From assembly GCF_009914755.1 (NCBI RefSeq), contig NC_060941.1: a stretch of DNA of 64,000 bases. One strand, given 5' to 3'. Position 1 is the first letter of the stretch, and the number at the start of each line of letters is the position of its first letter. Under the pieces are notes generated by a model. That model made no database searches. It saw only the letters and a program-made list of their open reading frames with translations, and was not told the origin of the DNA. This document shows, piece after piece, positions 45,042-62,531 of this stretch. A program made the translations under genes and the position numbers. This stretch comes from the human T2T-CHM13v2.0 reference genome, Homo sapiens.

Positions 45042-45340
<299 letters not shown>

Positions 45341-46779
45341 GAACAATATCGATGGTTTTATTCCCTGAACATGCTAAGTGATCCCCATGTAGTATAAGCA
45401 TCTCAGAAGGCAGGAAAATGTAATGAACAACACCCACCGCCATTCATTCCATCCAGAGATCGTTATTTTCTGCCCGGGTGTGAGTGTGTGTGTGCGTGCA
45501 AACTGCACATGTGTGTATGAAATGGAATTAGGATCTTTGTATACATCTTGTGTCCTGCTATTTTTACTTAATATTCTCGGCATTTCTCATCTTCAAAAAT
45601 GTGATTTTAATGATGGTGCAGGCCTTTGACATATGGGTTTAGAAAATCTGCGGAAACCCGGACTGTTTCCAGGTTTTGTCAGTTTAATGCTGATGCAAAT
45701 GTCCTCGTACGTAAATCTTTCTGTACTTCTGATTATTTCCTTGGGATAAATTCCCAGAAGTGGGCCAAAGCACATGAACGGTCTTCAGGCTTTTGGAGCA
45801 AGTTGAGATCGGTGGGGATTGGAGAAGGGACCCAGGGAGGCTTTTGGGAGCTTGCGAGATTGGAGTCTGGCTTTAGGGGACTTGAATTCACAGATGAAGG
45901 AGATGGCTGGCAAAGGTGGGAACCTCCTGCTCTATGGGTGGGGGGGTGACACTGCTTTACCTTCCAGTGACAGCATGGGGATCCTCCCAACATGACCTGG
46001 CTCCGCATCTTTCTGACACTGTGCACGGTCCACAGTTGTGATGCTCAGCTGGGAGCCTCTTCTGTGTCCTTCAGTTGCATTAACTCCTTGCAGACAGAGG
46101 AGGAAGCTGTCCGGTGCTCCTCCCTGCTGCGTGGGTCCTTTGAATCTGCCCAGTTGGGCCTGTGGATCTGTGCAGTCACGTACGGGGTTCTAAAATCTGC
46201 AAAATGACAAGCTCACGAACACTCTCGCTTCTGTGGGTGAATGTGGATACCCCTTGGCTGCGTCTCCCTCCACAGGGAAGATGGAGACGTGTAAAGTGAC
46301 AAGGACCTGCTACCCCTGGGCAGGTTATGCCGGTTCCACTGTGAGGATGGTGGCAGGGGGCTTCCCAGGAGGCCTGCACATTGGGAAGAGAGGGGCGACC
46401 GTGTGTGACTGCAGGACCCAGGGCGCAGTCTTAGGACTCTGATGGGGGAGGAGATGCTGGGGAGCCCTGTTCTGCCAGCCTGGTGACAGACATCTCCTAA
46501 TGTTTCCCGGCTGGGTACAACTCACAATGTCCTCCGTGGGGAGGCAATTGCCCATGAGGCATCCCTGGCAGGGATGATCTTGTTTCATTGCCACATATCC
46601 CAGCAATGAAACAAGAATCTAGAGTGATGTGATTCCTCCGATGACTTCTCCAACCATCTGGGGTTTTTGTGCGACTCCAAGAAGGGGGAAGGAGGCAGCT
46701 CTCGCTCCTCTGGGCTCCTGATGTGGCAGCTCTGGAATGGCCACGTGTCCGTTGGCCCACAGTGGGCCATTTGTCGAAT

Positions 46780-46850
46780 GTGGTTGTGGTGGGATTGGGG
46801 CTGGGCTGGAGAGTGGGTGACCACACCAGCTAGCCTCACCCTGGGCCACT
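46780..46850 (-). ncRNA. MIR4316: MIR4316 annotated precursor (mature GGUGAGGCUAGCUGGUG at 46824-46840)
   Basis: Reverse complement of CACCAGCTAGCCTCACC equals the miR-4316 mature sequence as I recall it; location in a SEPT9 intron agrees. The hairpin looks weak, so it may not be a true miRNA. Confidence 0.8.
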
Positions 46851-49987: not shown

Positions 49988-51259
49988 TCAGTGTTTTAAA
50001 AAGGGCTTGTTTTGCTTTGTGCCAGCATTTAAAGATCAGGAGATATCATATAAAGATCCAGATTTCTACTCTCTTGAGAAGTGAACAGCTCTGGCCACGC
50101 CGGGCCCATATCCTCTAGGGCAGTGACGGAGCTGAGACAGGGCCTGTGACAACTGAGAGTTCTCTGGAGTCCACACGGCTCCTTGCCCAGCTTCTGGTGG
50201 AGGTTGAGCTTAGTGACCCAGGATTTCGTCTGTGTCCACCAAGAAGGAGAGGTGCCTGTGGCTTAGAGAGGGCGCCCACAGGAGTGCCTTGCCCAGGAAG
50301 CTGGCAGCTGAGGCGGCCAGGGTTAGGGGGTTGGGCTTCCTCTTCCCCTCCCCAGTGCCTGAGTGCATTTGGAGGAAGAGAGACGGGTGAGGGGAAGGCA
50401 CTGAAATTGGTCCTGGAGCGCTATTATTGGGGGCTGGGGACCAGCTGTCATCCCTTTTCCTGTGGGCAGGGGAGGCAGTGGTGGGATCCCATGAGACCCG
50501 GACTCTGTGGCCTGGTGAGGCAGGGAGCGGCTGGGGAGACACTGTGGGTCTCCACAGGGGTGCGCTGTGGGTCTGGCCTGGGGAAGGAGCTGGTGAATGT
50601 GCCTGCCATGTGGGTCCCTCCCTGCTCTGGCCCTGATAACCAGGAGCGGCTGGCTCTCATTTGGAGTGCGGTTGTGGGGACTGTGGAGGTGGCAGCTTCC
50701 CAGGTACCATCCCCACTGCCTCCGAGGGAGCAGACCCTGGTGGAGAGGCAGGATGGCTGCAGGGCGGGAGCTGGTGGTTGGCATCACTGCACGGGCTTGT
50801 AGTAGTGGATGGGAAGATGCAGGAGAGGCTGATGACTGAGAAAGTTGGTTCCTGTGGACTAAGCTGGGGGAGCCGGACAACCAAGTGGTTAGAACCTTGG
50901 GCTCTGGTATCAGCCTGATGTACAGTCTGGCTCTGTGTCTACCCCGTGCCCCACTTTCCCCATCTGTACTGGGGGTACTGGTATTCTTTACATCCCAGGG
51001 TTAAGCGGCTGCAGATGTGATGAGCTCGGTAAGCCCGGCGCCTCGCCGGCACTGAAAGCTCCAGTGTCCGCCCTTAGTGTCATTGATGGGGTTTTGTTCC
51101 CGCTGCGGTTCTGATTGGTTACAGTTGCGGTCACTTATTATTGGAGGCATGTCCCCCGCTGTGGCTGATGGTAGAGGTGTGTTTGCTGGTGGTGTCCCAG
51201 TGTGTGCCTTGGCTGGAGGTGAGGAGGGATAAAAACAGCCGCGACAAGAAGGAAATCAA

Positions 51260-51527
51260 GGCCGGGCACGGTGGCGCACGCCTGTAATCCCAGCACTTTG
51301 GGAGGCCGAGGCGGGTGGATCGCTTGAGGTCAGGAGTCCGAGACCAGACTGACCAACATGGTGAAACCCCATCTCTACTAAAAATACAAAAATTAGCCAG
51401 GCATGGTGGCCCGTGCCTATAATCCCAGCTACTGGGGAGGCTGAGGTAGGAGAATCGCTTGAACCCGGGAGGTGCCGCTGCACTCCAGCCAGGGCAACAG
51501 AGCAAGACTCCATCTCAAAAAAAAAAA
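51260..51527 (+). mobile_element. AluS with a short right-arm deletion
   Basis: TSD AAGAAGGAAAT; ends about 330 bp upstream of the 645-bp exon. Confidence 0.93.
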
Positions 51528-51854
51528 GAAGGAAATAAAAGTCTTCTCTGGAACTAGAACGTTCCTATGTAGACGTAGCTGGAGGGGGAGGCTGTGTGGT
51601 TTGCGCCGTGGCCATGGCAAGACACGACGGGCAGCATCTTCCCACTCCAGCCTGCATCTCTGCCCCAGAACTCATGATGGTTCTCCTAGGATGGGGCTGT
51701 CCCTTCCGCTTGCTGAGACATGAAGGACGGGAAGAGACCCCCGGCCCTCACCGCCGCATCGCCTGCCTTCCTCTGCTGCTCCTTAGCAGGAAACATGCCG
51801 GAGTGTTCCCTAGCCATCCATTCACCAATTGCATCCCCTCTCTTTATTTTTCAG

Positions 51855-52499
51855 CCTTGAAAAGATCTTTTGAGGTCGAGGAGGTCGAGACACCCAACTC
51901 CACCCCACCCCGGAGGGTCCAGACTCCCCTACTCCGAGCCACTGTGGCCAGCTCCACCCAGAAATTCCAGGACCTGGGCGTGAAGAACTCAGAACCCTCG
52001 GCCCGCCATGTGGACTCCCTAAGCCAACGCTCCCCCAAGGCGTCCCTGCGGAGGGTGGAGCTCTCGGGCCCCAAGGCGGCCGAGCCGGTGTCCCGGCGCA
52101 CTGAGCTGTCCATTGACATCTCGTCCAAGCAGGTGGAGAACGCCGGGGCCATCGGCCCGTCCCGGTTCGGGCTCAAGAGGGCCGAGGTGTTGGGCCACAA
52201 GACGCCAGAACCGGCCCCTCGGAGGACGGAGATCACCATCGTCAAACCCCAGGAGTCAGCCCACCGGAGGATGGAGCCCCCTGCCTCCAAGGTCCCCGAG
52301 GTGCCCACTGCCCCTGCCACCGACGCAGCCCCCAAGAGGGTGGAGATCCAGATGCCCAAGCCTGCTGAGGCGCCCACCGCCCCCAGCCCAGCCCAGACCT
52401 TGGAGAATTCAGAGCCTGCCCCTGTGTCTCAGCTGCAGAGCAGGCTGGAGCCCAAGCCCCAGCCCCCTGTGGCTGAGGCTACACCCCGGAGCCAGGAGG
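51855..52499 (+). CDS. SEPTIN9: SEPTIN9 shared 645-bp exon, N-terminal basic/proline-rich domain (ALKRSFEVEEVETPNSTPP...ATPRSQE)
   Basis: Polypyrimidine tract and TTTCAG acceptor ending at 51854; donor G|GTGAGT at 52500; 645 nt, phase 1-1; translation matches SEPT9. HNA codons R106 (CGG, 52094) and S111 (TCC, 52109) are wild type (isoform 1 numbering; R88 and S93 in isoform 3). Confidence 0.99.
51855..52499 (+). ncRNA. circSEPT9 single-exon circular RNA (645 nt)
   Basis: Long exon between very long introns with a convergent Alu pair (51260 +, 54053 -); a 645-nt circSEPT9 is reported in the literature (recollection). Confidence 0.7.
52271..52499 (+). CDS. SEPTIN9: Internal start of short SEPT9 isoform 4 (MEPPASKVPEV...)
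   Basis: In-frame AGG-ATG-G at 52271 (A at -3, G at +4); equals M165 of isoform 1, the known i4 start. Confidence 0.85.
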
Positions 52500-53549
52500 G
52501 TGAGTCGCAGAGCGCTAGGTCTTGGATGCTGTGGTAATGGGGGGCCTGGTTGCTGGCTTTGCCACAGAATCTTGGAGGAAGAAGCTGGATATGGGGTGGA
52601 GGGTGCTACCCTGGAGACCCAGAAAGACCGGAATGCATGGGGGTGGGGGTCTGCAAGCTCAGGAGAGGTGGCTCTCTCTGTCTGATGGGAACATGCCAAG
52701 ATGCCCCAAGCGGGACTTGAATGAGAGTTTGGAAAGATTTTCTGGGTTTCAAGGAGCCTCCTTTATGGGTCACCGTGGGCCTTGCTGGGACCTCTGTCTG
52801 CTGTGTGTCCCTGGAGGGCCTGGGAGGCTTAGAGAATGAGGAGCCACGCAGGAACCAGGGCAGGCTCATGCAGGGGTGTAGGACAGGGTGGAGTTGAGAC
52901 CCCTAGAAGGGCTGTCACACTCTGGTGGCTCCTGCTTGAGGAATTGCAGGCTGCCTGGATATGCCCAGCAGAGGCCGAGGGCTTGGGGAAGGGAGGAGGG
53001 ACGTATGCCTCCTGAGGCTTGCATTGGAGCCCATGGTCTGGTCCTCCTCCCCCAGGAGGGATGGTTGTGGCAGAGGGAGGGGAACATGAGGAGCACCTTA
53101 GCCTGCAGGACAAAATTCTCAGGGCACTGGGAAGGGGTGCCTGGACCAGGGGGCTGTGTGATAGCTGCACACGGTTTTATTTGGGGGTGCCCTTCTGGCG
53201 AGAGGAGAGAGGCCATGGGGCTCCAGCAGCGTCCTGGGAGGGCTCAAGCCCACAGCCGTGCTGACATGGAGCTTACAGGCAGGGGATTGGTGCCAGTCCT
53301 GTGGGACACAGGGCCTGTTTGGAAATGCCAGGCTGTGGGACATGGTTGGGTCCCTTCTCAGAAGCGTGCCCCCTGGCCCCAGCAGGGATCGTGGCTCCAT
53401 GGGGCTATAGTAAGGTGCCAGCTGGGTTAGAAGCCCCTCAAGAGCCAGGTCTGATTCTGGGCACAGGATCAGAACTCAGTAATGCTCAGTAAGCCTTCTT
53501 TAGGTTGGACAAACAGCACAGTCTGGGTTTTTGATTTAGCTGCTGCTTC

Positions 53550-54030
53550 TTATTTCTAACCGTGGTGAAATACACAACATACAATGTGCAATTTTAGCCA
53601 CTTTGCAGTGTACGTTTCAGCGGCATTCAGTACATTCACGGTGTTGCGCAGCTGCCACCGCTGTCCATCTCCGGTACCCTTTTCATCCTCCCAAACTGAG
53701 CTCCGTCCCCGTTAGACCAAGCTCCCCATGCCCCTCCCCCAGCTGCTGGCAGCCACCATTCTATTTTCTGTCTTTATTATGAATTTATTTGACCACTCTA
53801 GGAACCTTGTGTGTGTGGAAAAATACAATAACTGCCCATTTTGTGTCTGGCTCATTTCACTCAGCATGACGTCCTAAAGGTTCATCCGTCGTGCTGTAGC
53901 ATGGGGCAGAATTTCCTTCCTTTCAGAGGCTGAATAATATTCTGTTGTGCGATGCACTTGTGTTGTGTAGCTGTTCCTCCATCGGTGGACCCTTGGGTTG
54001 CTTCCACATCTCTCTAAGTCCCGCTTTCCA
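53550..54030 (-). mobile_element. Old L1 (L1MB-like) 3' fragment
   Basis: CACCATTCTATTTTCTGTCT, TTTTGTGTCTGGCTCATTTCACTCAGCAT, GGCTGAATAATATTC motifs. Confidence 0.8.
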
Positions 54031-54052
54031 TCTTCTTTGACTTTTCTTTGAC

Positions 54053-54335
54053 TTTTTTGAGACAGGGTCTTGCTCTGTCCTCCAGGCTGGCGTGCAGTGG
54101 TGTGATCACTGCTTACTGCAACCTCTGCCCCCTGGGCTCAAGTGATTCCCCAGCCTCAGCCTCCCAAGTACCTAGGACCACAGGTTGCGCGCCACCATGC
54201 CTGGCTAATTTTTAAATTTTTTTTGTAAAGACAGGTTCTCACTAGGTTGCCCAGGCTGGTCTCAAACTCCTGGGTTCAAATGAGCCTCCTGCCTCGGCCT
54301 CCCAAAGTGTTGGGATTATAGGCATGAGCCACCCA
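54053..54335 (-). mobile_element. AluJ
   Basis: Diverged antisense Alu about 1.55 kb downstream of the 645-bp exon. Confidence 0.9.
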
Positions 54336-54887
54336 ACCCCTTTTTGGTTTTTCTTTTTGAATGAGAGTTCTCCAGTGGTCAGTGGGCTTGGGGGCTGGGA
54401 GGATGTGGGGCCTGGAGAGGGTGTGGGTTTGGGGGGAGACCAGTGCTCCTCATGCTTTCATGGGCATGTGGAGTGCACATTTGTCTTGGCGGGTCTGGGG
54501 CCTGGGACTCTGCATTTCCTACAGAGGGGGCATCGGAACACACTGAGTAGCCAGAGGCTAGTGGGCCTTGGAAGGTCCTTTCCGGCCCTCAGTGTGCGAG
54601 TCCCGTGTTCCCTCTCCCATCTCTCTAAGCTTGACTCTGAAGAGCCACCCTGCCCCAGCCACCCAGACTCAGTGACAGTGGTTGCTGGTGGCATGGTGTC
54701 AGGCCAAAGGCATGGGCAGTTTGCAGAGTGGCAGGAGGCTGTTTCCTCCCCTGCCTTCTGTTGGTGCAGGACCTTTGTTTGACGTGCCGGATACACCCCC
54801 ATCCTGGGTTGATGTGTTCACACTCAGCTGAGTCAAACAGGATGTGGCTGGGGAGGCGGTTGTCACCGAGCCATCTAAATCTCGGTG

Positions 54888-54936
54888 ATGGCTGGTGCTG
54901 GATGCACAGGGACGTGGTCCTGGCTCTGGGGGACAG
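54888..54936 (+). CDS. SEPTIN9: SEPTIN9 alternative first exon, coding part MAGAGCTGTWSWLWGT
   Basis: ATG at 54888, 16 codons plus phase-1 G, donor CAG|GTAGGG at 54937; same phase as the 645-bp exon, so it can join the same downstream exon; the peptide matches my recollection of an annotated short SEPT9 isoform. Confidence 0.75.
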
Positions 54937-56421
54937 GTAGGGGGATGTCCATGGGGATGTACAAGAACATTCTCCTCCAGGGGCAGACACAGTTTAGCCC
55001 CTAAATTGTGCCAGAGACTGTGCCGGGAGCCAGGCCCAGGGACACAACCTGCGGGCTCTGCTTTCTGGAGCTCACCGAGCCGTGAGCAGGATGGCTGGGA
55101 CACAAGGAGTGTCCAGGGAGCTTCCCCAGCAGTGGAAGTACAATTTCATCAGGCCAGGAAGGGGAGAGAAAGGCAGGCCACGTGGAGGCAGCAGCGTTCA
55201 GAGCTGCCAGGAACCTGGCGCTCTGGGGGGACGGTGGCTTTCTCCATGGAATAGGATGTACACGTTGGAGCCGGGGCATGGGAGAAAACCATCAGCATCC
55301 CAGACCCGGCCACCCACGGACAGGGACCTGTGCAGGTGGGAGTCCAGCTCACGTGGAGAGGTCCGTGGGCTGGGCTGACAGTCCTGAGGGCCTAAGCAAG
55401 TCCAGGTGGAGGAAATGCAGGGACAGACGAGGGCAGGGCCTTCCCAATGGAGGAGTGCTCTTGAAATCCGATGGGAGTGGCTTCTCGGGGGGCCCAGGCC
55501 TGAGCCCCACTAGTTCTTCCTCCGAGGCACCACCTGCTTGCTTCTCCGTCCTCCCTCTCTGTGTCACGACCGTTCTGGACACGGATCCAGTTCTCTCCAA
55601 CTCAGCTTCCTGCCCATCTTTCCTTCAGGCCCATCCCCTTCTGCCCCTCCATGTGGGGCTGGGCTGGGAGTTCCCTGAGCCCCGACATGCACAGCTCTGA
55701 CCAATCTCTGCGGCCCCTCTGTCCCCCGAGCACCAGGGATCCAGCTGGCACCATGGGGAAAGGAATCATGGAGGGAGTTCCGTGCCCTCTGAGCAGACGC
55801 CCAGCCCCTTGGCTTCTGCCTGCGGGAGGGCATCTGTGCTGTGGTTTGTCTCCACCCCAGAGCTGTGGGTGCAGGGCAGGGTCTCCTGGGGCCCCAGCTG
55901 AATTGCTCCCAGACTGACTTCCCCAAAGCACAGCACTGCTGAGATCTCTTCCCGTGCTGAGCCTTCTCTGCTCACTCACCATAGGCCCCTCCACGGTTGA
56001 TTCACTCTCCTGCTCAGCTCACACCTCTCTCCTTCCCAGCTTCTCCTGCTTTGGTCTTCCCTTGGTCTCTCACACCTTTCCTCACAACCCCTTTGCCCTG
56101 ACCTCCTGAACCCTGACCTCTGCTTCTCTTTACATCACTGCCTTGGTGAACTCCTATGCATCCCTCAAAACCTGGTCCAAATACCTCGTGTTTGGCTTGG
56201 GATATAAATGATTTGTGTATAAACTTTCTTTCCTCTGCTAGACTTTTTTTTTTAAATGTGAAAGTAGTTTTTCAGATCATAAAAAGTAATCGAGTACCCT
56301 TTCTTTAAAATGCAGGAAGTACAGAAATGAGAAAGAACCTAAAATTCACCTGTAAGCCAGCGATATCCATGCTTGAGGTTTTGCTGTATAGTCTTCAAAA
56401 TTCCTTTCATGCCCCCACTAG

Positions 56422-57109
<688 letters not shown>

Positions 57110-60720: not shown

Positions 60721-62531
<1,811 letters not shown>

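What the first reader, a model, noticed from the sequence alone, without database searches (positions are those of the whole stretch)
51855..52499. Circular form of the 645-nt SEPT9 exon is an endless ORF with its own strong AUG: candidate rolling-circle translation system
Seen: the exon is 645 nt = 215 codons, phase 1 at both ends, with no stop in the SEPT9 frame. Back-splicing joins ...AGC CAG GAG G to CC TTG AAA AGA, giving S-Q-E-A-L-K-R and returning to the same frame, so a ribosome would never meet a stop. An AUG in strong context (AGGATGG, 52271) lies inside the circle. Recalled from the literature: a 645-nt circSEPT9 exists and is described as a miRNA sponge; a putative IRES was mapped to this exon upstream of the i4 AUG; HNA is caused by point mutations in this exon or by tandem duplication of it. 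Inference: the circle could make concatemers of the cytoskeleton-binding N-terminal domain without the GTPase domain, carrying the same junction that HNA duplications create genetically. I do not know of this being described.
Basis: partly seen in the sequence, partly recalled or inferred. Interest (0 to 1): 0.85.

Follow-up and report, generated by a model that had tools for sequence, protein, structure and literature searches.

The report
Endless reading frame in circSEPT9 exon
The 645-base SEPT9 exon would indeed read endlessly if circularised and carries a genuine start codon, but this is an ordinary arithmetical property of many coding exons, and nothing yet shows that the known circSEPT9 RNA is translated.

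Summary
The exon at 51855-52499 is 645 nt and phase 1 at both ends. It has no stop in the SEPT9 frame round the circle, and the junction codon G+CC encodes Ala. The in-frame ATG at 52271 has A at -3 and G at +4. RefSeq uses that ATG as the CDS start of two SEPT9 mRNAs.

The 645-nt circle (hsa_circ_0005320) is published as RNase R-resistant, cytoplasmic and conserved in mouse, and is described only as a miRNA sponge.

The property is common. On chr17, 74 of 194 wholly coding internal exons of 400-999 nt are divisible by 3. All 74 are stop-free as circles, 68 have an in-frame ATG, and 34 have a strong-context one. Published surveys put host-frame endless ORFs at 14% of human circRNAs.

I found no sequence signal for cap-independent initiation: no Rfam IRES, no DRACH excess, ordinary folding energy. 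My literature searches found no report of circSEPT9 translation.

Verdict: a real but unremarkable candidate of a known kind. Translation is untested and the prior is low.

The parts
51855..52499 (+). The 645-nt SEPT9 exon ('exon 2' of NM_006640), which is the whole sequence of circSEPT9 / hsa_circ_0005320. It is wholly coding in 4 RefSeq mRNAs and part 5'UTR, part coding in 2 more.
   Evidence: The published circle is 645 bp, from exon 2, with hg19 coordinates spanning 645 nt.
51853..51854 (+). AG splice acceptor, which serves as the back-splice acceptor.
   Evidence: the upstream 20 nt end in ...TTTTTCAG after a pyrimidine tract.
52500..52505 (+). GTGAGT splice donor, which serves as the back-splice donor.
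52271..52273 (+). In-frame ATG with A at -3 and G at +4. It is the annotated CDS start of NM_001113492.2 and NM_001113494.1 (the short N-terminal isoform) and the putative entry point of the endless ORF.
52352..52354 (+). Second in-frame ATG, in a weaker context (ATCCAGATGC). A Met is present here in 3 of 14 aligned species rows.
52008..52022 (+). Out-of-frame ATG opening a 4-codon uORF that ends at TAA 52020-52022. It lies upstream of the 52271 ATG, both in the linear 5'UTR and in the circle.
   Evidence: ATG at 52008 in frame offset 0; stop at 52020 in that frame.
52094..52096 (+). CGG codon of Arg88 (NM_006640 numbering), the site of the published HNA change R88W. It lies inside the circle, 175 nt upstream of the 52271 ATG.
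   Evidence: Counted. The variant is named. The residue is invariant in 14 of 14 aligned rows.
52109..52111 (+). TCC codon of Ser93, the site of the published HNA change S93F.
   Evidence: Counted. The variant is named. The residue is invariant in 14 of 14 rows.
51254..51544 (+). Alu-like repeat 311 nt upstream of the exon. It is a candidate intron-pairing arm for back-splicing.
   Evidence: Masked repeat. Two sub-threshold Metazoa_SRP hits at 51261-51377 and 51396-51518 on the + strand.
56554..56700 (-). Downstream inverted partner of the upstream Alu: 147 nt, 89% complementary to 51326-51472.
   Evidence: pair I12. It lies within masked repeat 56436-56772.
61284..61429 (-). Second downstream inverted partner: 146 nt, 86% complementary to 51327-51472.
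   Evidence: pair I14.
54028..54272 (-). Nearest downstream inverted repeat: 245 nt, 73% complementary to 45111-45355 in the upstream intron.
   Evidence: pair I5. Masked repeats at 54039-54365.

Best explanation
This is an ordinary symmetrical (phase 1-1) coding exon of SEPT9. It encodes most of the disordered, basic, proline-rich N-terminal extension and contains the start codon of the short isoform. It sits between very long introns that carry inverted Alu elements, and it back-splices at low level into the known cytoplasmic 645-nt circSEPT9.

The endless reading frame follows arithmetically. The exon is open in the host frame because the linear mRNA needs it to be. Its length must be a multiple of 3 because both flanking introns are phase 1. 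The junction codon happens to be GCC. The ATG at 52271 is there because linear mRNAs use it.

The circle therefore meets the sequence definition of a rolling-circle ORF circRNA, as a large minority of exonic circles do. Most likely it is not translated, or only negligibly. Shown here: the sequence facts, the annotation and the base rates. Taken from papers: the existence and location of the circle. Inferred: the Alu-pairing biogenesis and the lack of meaningful translation.
For: Sequence and frame.

Annotation: the ATG is the RefSeq CDS start of 2 mRNAs, and the exon is in 6 of 11 SEPTIN9 mRNAs. Flanking introns are 25.7 kb or more upstream and 79.3 kb downstream.

Base rates: 40% of 10290 chr17 coding internal exons are divisible by 3. 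Of the 74 that are 400-999 nt long, 74 are stop-free circles, 68 have an in-frame ATG and 34 have a strong one. Fan et al. preprint (passages): 14% of human circRNAs have host-frame endless ORFs. Legnini 2017 (passages): 735 of 2175 circRNAs contain the host start codon.

Evidence against circRNA translation in general: Stagsted 2019 (abstract and passages) found no ribosome-profiling, proteomic or reporter evidence for translation of start-codon-containing circRNAs.

No initiation signal in the exon: 0 Rfam IRES hits; 10 DRACH motifs against 10.5 +/- 2.9 in shuffles; circular MFE z = -0.96; AU-rich hexamer density ranks 34th lowest of 74.

Low abundance: 3, 0, 7, 3 junction reads in Legnini's Table 1.

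Conservation: a Met at the 52271 position in 8 of 14 aligned rows, and two bird rows have no Met at all in the exon-equivalent region.

Inverted Alus flank the exon.
Against: The AUG is a proven-quality initiator with a strong context. In the linear short-isoform mRNAs, the 416 nt of this same exon upstream of it serve as 5'UTR. By my recollection a putative IRES was reported there (McDade 2007; not held, so unverified).

Fan et al. report that endless-ORF circles are over-represented among circRNAs with junction peptides (about 50% of 990), and that three tested endogenous ones gave concatemer ladders from reporters.

The circle is cytoplasmic and conserved in mouse at 639 nt, also a multiple of 3.

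The fully tryptic junction peptide is only 6 residues, so its absence from trypsin-based catalogues would be uninformative.

I could not see supplementary tables or translation databases that might list this circle.
Confidence: 0.8

Rival explanations
1. Rolling-circle translation. Ribosomes load cap-independently on circSEPT9, start at AUG 52271 and go round without meeting a stop. They make concatemers of a 215-residue, 23.3-kDa, pI 9.8 disordered unit that carries the cytoskeleton-binding motifs but no GTPase domain. Synthesis ends by stalling or frameshift.
For: All sequence prerequisites are met. Both other frames hold stops (3 and 5), so any frameshift would terminate within one lap. The unit has 6 [KR]R.[DE] motifs, 31 Pro, and no Cys, Trp or Tyr. 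It has no Pfam domain, and its mean pLDDT is 51.5 with no secondary structure. There is precedent for this kind of circle: circEGFR, circNFIB, circTau 12->10 and circPSAP, circPFAS, circABHD12. The circle is cytoplasmic.
Against: No direct evidence was found in any search. The main text of the founding circSEPT9 paper has 0 mentions of ORF or IRES. There is no sequence signal for internal initiation and no slippery heptamer. Read counts are low. The Met is not conserved in 6 of 14 rows. General negative evidence for AUG circRNAs comes, and rolling-circle products tend to be degraded by the proteasome. By inference, larger SEPT9 proteins were reported as a feature of intragenic duplication alleles rather than as a normal finding.
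Confidence: 0.08
2. circSEPT9 acts as a non-coding miRNA sponge, which is its published function. The open frame is irrelevant to what it does.
For: miR-637. miR-1225, miR-625-5p and miR-149-5p (titles and abstracts in the listing). miR-432-5p (review passage).
Against: A different miRNA is proposed in each study. Junction read counts are low. [quoted passage not shown] I did not test site density or stoichiometry.
Confidence: 0.12

Closest known systems
circEGFR / rolling-translated EGFR
   Same: A circle made of host coding exons, with a length divisible by 3 and an endless ORF in the host frame, giving repeats of a host-protein segment.
   Different: circEGFR is 249 nt and made of two exons. 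It has reported mass-spectrometry and ribosome evidence, and termination is ascribed to -1 frameshifting into an out-of-frame stop. circSEPT9 has no translation evidence and no canonical slippery heptamer.
circPFAS, circPSAP and circABHD12 (rcORF circRNAs of Fan et al.)
   Same: The sequence definition is the same: an ATG-initiated ORF with no stop round the circle. PFAS is among the chr17 genes with long divisible-by-3 coding exons.
   Different: Those three have junction-spanning spectra and V5-tagged reporter ladders. SEPT9 has 0 mentions in that main text, and Table S4 could not be opened.
circ-ZNF609
   Same: A single-exon cytoplasmic circle that contains a host start codon. It was found in the same myoblast screen that lists circ-SEPT9.
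   Different: Its ORF ends at a stop 3 nt after the junction, so it is finite. Polysome loading and tagged products were shown for it, but circ-SEPT9 was not tested.
Non-coding 'AUG circRNAs' (Stagsted et al. 2019)
   Same: It contains an annotated host start codon and has very long flanking introns. It would fall in their 'ambiguous' class, because the host gene has several start codons.
   Different: That class is described as largely Alu-independent, with endless ORFs in only 8%. Here inverted Alus flank the exon and the ORF is endless.
HNA intragenic SEPT9 duplication alleles
   Same: Exon-to-exon splicing of the duplicated 645-nt exon must give the same junction and an in-frame repeat of the same 215 residues (sequence logic). 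Larger transcripts and proteins are reported.
   Different: That product comes from a linear, capped mRNA. It has exactly two copies and keeps the GTPase domain and C-terminus. It is a germline allele, not an RNA-processing product.

Membership tests
Rolling-circle ORF (endless ORF) circRNA, sequence definition | Circle length divisible by 3. | tested here: met
   645 nt = 215 codons.
Rolling-circle ORF (endless ORF) circRNA, sequence definition | No stop codon in one frame, with the junction codon included. | tested here: met
   0 stops in the SEPT9 frame round the circle; the junction codon is GCC.
Rolling-circle ORF (endless ORF) circRNA, sequence definition | An ATG in that frame. | tested here: met
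   ATGs at 52271 and 52352. The first is a RefSeq CDS start.
Rolling-circle ORF (endless ORF) circRNA, sequence definition | The exon really forms a covalently closed circle. | not testable with these tools
   Literature only. Junction Sanger-sequenced, RNase R-resistant, cytoplasmic. RT-PCR-validated, RNase R-resistant, cytoplasmic, in human and mouse.
Translated rolling-circle circRNA (circEGFR-like) | Ribosome or polysome association across the back-splice junction. | not testable with these tools
   No sequencing reads are available. No report was found.
Translated rolling-circle circRNA (circEGFR-like) | A junction-spanning peptide. | not testable with these tools
   No proteomics are available. 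The fully tryptic junction peptide is 6 residues and the Lys-C peptide is 17.
Translated rolling-circle circRNA (circEGFR-like) | A concatemer ladder from a controlled tagged circle, lost on AUG mutation or stop insertion. | not testable with these tools
   Bench experiment.
Translated rolling-circle circRNA (circEGFR-like) | An element for cap-independent initiation (IRES, m6A, AU-rich IRES-like hexamers). | tested here: inconclusive
   No Rfam IRES family matched at E <= 1. DRACH count is 10 against 10.5 +/- 2.9. MFE z = -0.96. There are 12 AU-rich hexamers, rank 34 of 74, and 7 of them cluster at 51857-51868 just after the junction. The reported putative IRES is recalled only (paper not held).
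AUG circRNA (Stagsted et al.) | Contains an annotated host start codon. | tested here: met
   CDS start at 52271 in 2 of 11 RefSeq mRNAs. It would be 'ambiguous' in their terms, because other isoforms start elsewhere.
AUG circRNA (Stagsted et al.) | Long flanking introns and biogenesis independent of inverted Alus. | tested here: inconclusive
   The introns are long: 25.7-121 kb upstream and 79.3 kb downstream. But inverted Alu pairs span the exon (pairs I5, I12, I14).
miRNA-sponge circRNA | Site density and stoichiometry adequate to titrate a miRNA. | not tested
   Published claims only.

The most novel reading that the evidence does not exclude
circSEPT9 is translated from the short-isoform AUG by cap-independent initiation. 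Ribosomes circle it and make 23-kDa-step concatemers of the disordered, basic N-terminal region, with 6 [KR]R.[DE] motifs per lap and no GTPase domain. These products act as free cytoskeletal cross-linkers. They carry the same exon-exon junction as HNA duplication alleles, and both HNA missense sites lie inside the circle. Part of the tumour phenotype now ascribed to miRNA sponging, and perhaps stress-triggered HNA biology, would then come from this protein.
Probability: 0.06. Interest if true: 0.7.

Novelty: new member of a known kind. Interest (0 to 1): 0.27.

Why it matters
If the circle were translated, a well-studied disease exon would have a second, GTPase-free protein output. That output would repeat the cytoskeleton-binding region and mimic the junction made by HNA duplications, and it would recast the many 'circSEPT9 sponge' cancer papers.

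As things stand, the value of the finding is narrower. It gives a cleanly specified, testable candidate. It also gives two practical warnings. First, the tryptic junction peptide is too short to be seen in standard searches. Second, junction reads or peptides are ambiguous wherever exon repetition, trans-splicing or a duplication allele is possible. The base-rate control shows that 'endless ORF plus strong AUG' alone should not be scored as remarkable in future scans.

Tried and rejected
Rfam scan of 51000-53000 at E <= 1. The only hits were Alu-type SRP matches upstream and weak sub-threshold matches. No IRES family matched.

m6A motif count. No excess over shuffles.

Circular folding against 100 dinucleotide shuffles. 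z = -0.96, so no unusual structure. The AUG region has an unpaired probability of 0.33 against a circle mean of 0.37.

Slippery X XXY YYZ heptamers. None, so a circEGFR-style frameshift stop has no obvious site.

Pfam scan. No family matched.

Structure prediction on a shallow 14-row alignment. Mean pLDDT 51.5, pTM 0.11, no secondary structure. This is consistent with disorder but is not strong evidence, because the alignment is thin and made of fragmentary gene models.

Orthologue search. The length filter let through only fragments and mis-predicted models (24 hits among 105 scored candidates; 998 sample-only candidates were left out). I aligned 13 of the 24 hits, namely those covering 87% or more of the query, and dropped the 11 shorter ones. 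No mouse sequence was obtained, so the mouse AUG is unknown.

Papers. McDade 2007 and Landsverk 2009 are not held. The IRES claim, and the statement that duplication transcripts carry two in-frame exon copies, therefore rest on my recollection plus review passages. Of the papers found by a search for SEPT9 + McDade + IRES terms, I opened three, and none describes the IRES. Every paper I opened that combined circSEPT9 with rolling, IRES or ORF terms only cites the 2020 sponge paper, apart from one glioma review that reports a further sponge target and treats rolling translation only for circEGFR.

The last search, meant to test for an HNA-circRNA link in print, was mis-specified. With min_terms 2 it was satisfied by circRNA synonyms alone, and its 15 listed papers have 0 mentions of the disease. 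It is uninformative, and no searches remained. The claim 'not in print' therefore rests only. It covers only Creative Commons PMC papers plus bioRxiv, and excludes subscription papers, supplements and databases such as riboCIRC or TransCirc.

Supplements are closed. Fan et al. Table S4 (990 junctions), the supplementary tables of Zheng 2020 and the supplements of Stagsted 2019 could bear on the claim.

I considered searching the genome for other occurrences of the junction peptide. I did not, because that would mean typing a joined sequence.

Full report
OBSERVATION. The exon at 51855-52499 is 645 nt. It is preceded by a pyrimidine tract ending in CAG and followed by GTGAGT. Translation from 51857 gives 214 sense codons with no stop. 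Reading the exon joined to itself gives 0 stops in the SEPT9 frame, and 3 and 5 stops in the other two frames. The final G and the initial CC form GCC (Ala), so a back-spliced circle reads S-Q-E-A-L-K-R and re-enters the same frame. There are two in-frame ATGs. The one at 52271 has the context CGGAGGATGG (A at -3, G at +4). The one at 52352 has a weaker context. An out-of-frame ATG at 52008 opens a 4-codon uORF that ends at TAA 52020.

WHAT THE PIECES ARE. RefSeq places this exon in 6 of 11 SEPTIN9 mRNAs. In four of them it is wholly coding. In NM_001113492.2 and NM_001113494.1 the CDS begins exactly at 52271, so 51855-52270 is 5'UTR in those transcripts. The 'strong AUG inside the circle' is therefore the annotated initiator of the short N-terminal isoform. 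That fully accounts for its presence and context.

The next shared exon lies at window coordinate 131846, so the downstream intron is 79.3 kb. The upstream intron is 25.7 kb from the nearest annotated exon and up to 121 kb from the farthest.

An Alu-like repeat on the + strand lies 311 nt upstream of the exon. It is a masked repeat at 51254-51544, with two sub-threshold SRP-RNA hits. It has inverted partners downstream at 56554-56700 (147 nt, 89%) and 61284-61429 (146 nt, 86%). A further pair is 45111-45355 with 54028-54272 (245 nt, 73%). Long introns and inverted Alus are the usual setting for back-splicing. That they drive it here is my inference.

By my count, the published HNA changes R88W and S93F (named) fall at codons 52094-52096 and 52109-52111. 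Both are inside the circle and upstream of the 52271 ATG.

THE CIRCLE IS KNOWN. In Zheng et al. 2020 (PMC7137343; passages), circSEPT9 = hsa_circ_0005320 comes from exon 2 and is 645 bp. Its junction was Sanger-sequenced, and it is RNase R-resistant, mainly cytoplasmic and proposed as a miR-637 sponge. The main text has 0 occurrences of ORF, open reading, IRES or neuralgic.

Table 1 of Legnini et al. 2017 (PMC5387670; passages and table) lists Circ-SEPT9 at hg19 coordinates spanning 645 nt. It has junction read counts of 3, 0, 7, 3, was validated, and is RNase R-resistant and cytoplasmic. The mouse Circ-Sept9 spans 639 nt, also a multiple of 3. Only circ-ZNF609 was tested on polysomes.

Other papers propose other miRNAs (titles and abstracts in the listing; review passage).

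IS THE PROPERTY UNUSUAL? No. On chr17, 4120 of 10290 wholly coding internal exons (40%) have lengths divisible by 3. In the 400-999 nt class the figure is 74 of 194. The exon is long: 98.9% of such exons are shorter than 645 nt.

I fetched all 74 and read each as a circle in its annotated frame. All 74 have no stop, 68 have at least one in-frame ATG, and 34 have at least one with a purine at -3 and G at +4. The set includes the SEPT9 exon itself and several alternative-boundary versions of the same exon (FOXN1, SYNRG, CDK12, HSF5), so the rows are not fully independent.

Published figures agree. Fan et al. (bioRxiv 473207; passages) count host-frame endless ORFs in 14% of human circRNAs. Legnini et al. 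find the host start codon in 735 of 2175 circRNAs. Stagsted et al. 2019 (PMC6487579; abstract and passages) predict endless ORFs for 8% of start-codon-containing circRNAs.

The openness of the frame is imposed by the linear mRNA. Divisibility by 3 is imposed by the two phase-1 introns. Neither can count as evidence of selection for circle translation.

SIGNALS FOR INTERNAL INITIATION. None was found.
- Rfam gives no IRES family at E <= 1.
- DRACH motifs number 10, against 10.5 +/- 2.9 in shuffles.
- The circular MFE is -266.6 kcal/mol, against -259.0 +/- 8.0 for 100 dinucleotide shuffles (z = -0.96).
- The exon is 67% G+C.
- Fan et al. describe their IRES-like hexamers as AU-rich. The circle has 12 hexamers with five or more A/U, ranking 34th lowest of the 74 exons. 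Seven of the 12 cluster at 51857-51868, just 3' of the junction.

These are crude proxies, so I rate this feature as inconclusive rather than failed. The paper is not held, and none of the three held papers I opened that cite it describes the IRES.

THE HYPOTHETICAL PRODUCT. One lap from the 52271 Met is 215 residues, 23.3 kDa and pI 9.8. It has 31 Pro and no Cys, Trp or Tyr, and six [KR]R.[DE] motifs. It has no Pfam family. A low-confidence structure model shows no secondary structure (mean pLDDT 51.5, pTM 0.11, shallow alignment). This fits a disordered basic region. That this region binds microtubules and actin is established knowledge that I recall and did not test.

There is no canonical slippery heptamer. 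Any frameshift would meet a stop within a lap. The 2024 NAR review (PMC11724312; passages) says rolling-circle synthesis stops after 1.5 to more than 5 rounds by an unknown mechanism. Fan et al. find some such products rapidly degraded by the proteasome.

A practical point concerns detection. The fully tryptic junction peptide is 6 residues, too short for usual searches. The Lys-C peptide is 17 residues.

CONSERVATION. The orthologue search returned only fragments and mis-predicted models, because of the length filter. I aligned 13 of the 24 hits with the human exon. The Met at the 52271 position is present in 8 of 14 rows. It is replaced in Chinese hamster, three birds, a frog and a fish. Two bird rows have no Met at all in the exon-equivalent region. 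Arg88 and Ser93 are invariant in 14 of 14 rows. The start codon is therefore not a deeply conserved feature, although the domain is.

HNA LINK. Review passages confirm several points. All reported HNA duplications include this 645-bp exon. Five intragenic duplications gave larger transcripts and proteins. The two recurrent missense changes lie in the exon. It follows from the sequence that a tandemly duplicated exon spliced to itself yields the same junction as the circle. That the transcripts hold two in-frame copies is my recollection of Landsverk 2009, which is not held.

This parallel cuts both ways. It makes the junction ambiguous as a marker. And since the circle is present in ordinary cells, abundant circle-derived repeat protein would be expected in everyone, whereas larger products were reported as a feature of intragenic duplication alleles. 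That last point is inference, and I do not know the antibody epitopes.

LITERATURE ON NOVELTY. The searches were:
- circSEPT9 (282 papers)
- circSEPT9 + rolling (20 papers)
- hsa_circ_0005320 (20 papers)
- circSEPT9 variants + IRES/ORF/encoded
- SEPT9 + rolling-circle or endless-ORF phrases (64 papers)
- other name variants (12 papers)

None produced a paper that describes translation of this circle. Those I opened only cite the 2020 sponge paper or, in one review, report a further sponge target. The search meant to test for an HNA-circRNA link was mis-specified and is uninformative. Subscription journals, supplements and circRNA translation databases were out of reach.

The specific idea therefore appears undescribed within what I could search. 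The kind of thing is well described: circEGFR, circNFIB and circTau, and circPSAP, circPFAS and circABHD12. There is also a strong sceptical literature, and the review warns about trans-splicing and linear by-products in reporters.

VERDICT. The circle meets the sequence definition of a rolling-circle ORF circRNA and is a legitimate candidate, but the property is an automatic and common by-product of exon phase. No feature here argues for translation, the abundance is low, and the field's base rate for genuine circRNA translation is contested.

I put about 0.8 on 'ordinary coding exon whose known circle is not meaningfully translated', and about 0.08 on real rolling-circle translation. Interest is 0.27. 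If translation were shown, this would be a new member of a known kind.

Noticed in passing
window 54873-54936 (CDS from 54888); enhancer annotation at 54970-55019: An alternative first exon of NM_001293696.2 lies only 2.4 kb downstream of the 645-nt exon, inside what is otherwise the 79-kb downstream intron. Transcripts started there cannot contain the circularising exon. An internal promoter here could influence the balance of linear and circular output.
   Followed up: no
window 46780-46850, minus strand: MIR4316 is annotated on the opposite strand in the upstream intron, about 5 kb from the exon. I saw no link to the finding.
   Followed up: no
window 52505-52702, + strand: A weak Rfam hit to SOX2OT_exon3 (22.6 bits against a gathering score of 70, E = 0.003) lies immediately downstream of the splice donor. 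It is probably chance or composition.
   Followed up: no
P0002, P0003, P0012 and other rows of alignment A1: Several database 'proteins' from other species end just after the exon-equivalent region, with residues that match read-through of the splice donor into the intron. Others carry unrelated N-terminal extensions. They are fragmentary or mis-predicted gene models, not real short isoforms.
   Followed up: partly
window 51857-51859; alignment A1, row 1: The alignment tool rendered the first codon TTG of the window reference as M (bacterial-table start rule), whereas translate gives L. This is a tool artefact and it affects residue 1 of the model.
   Followed up: yes
window 52094-52096 and 52109-52111; alignment A1: The two HNA-mutated residues are invariant in 14 of 14 rows from mammals to a fish. 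The [KR]R.[DE] motif count stays at 6-8 per exon-equivalent region despite many indels.
   Followed up: partly
outside the window: exon at window coordinates -43617 to -43561: The 57-nt upstream coding exon of NM_001113491.2 plus the 645-nt exon totals 702 nt, also divisible by 3. A two-exon circle would also close on the host frame. Its sequence was not read for stops.
   Followed up: no
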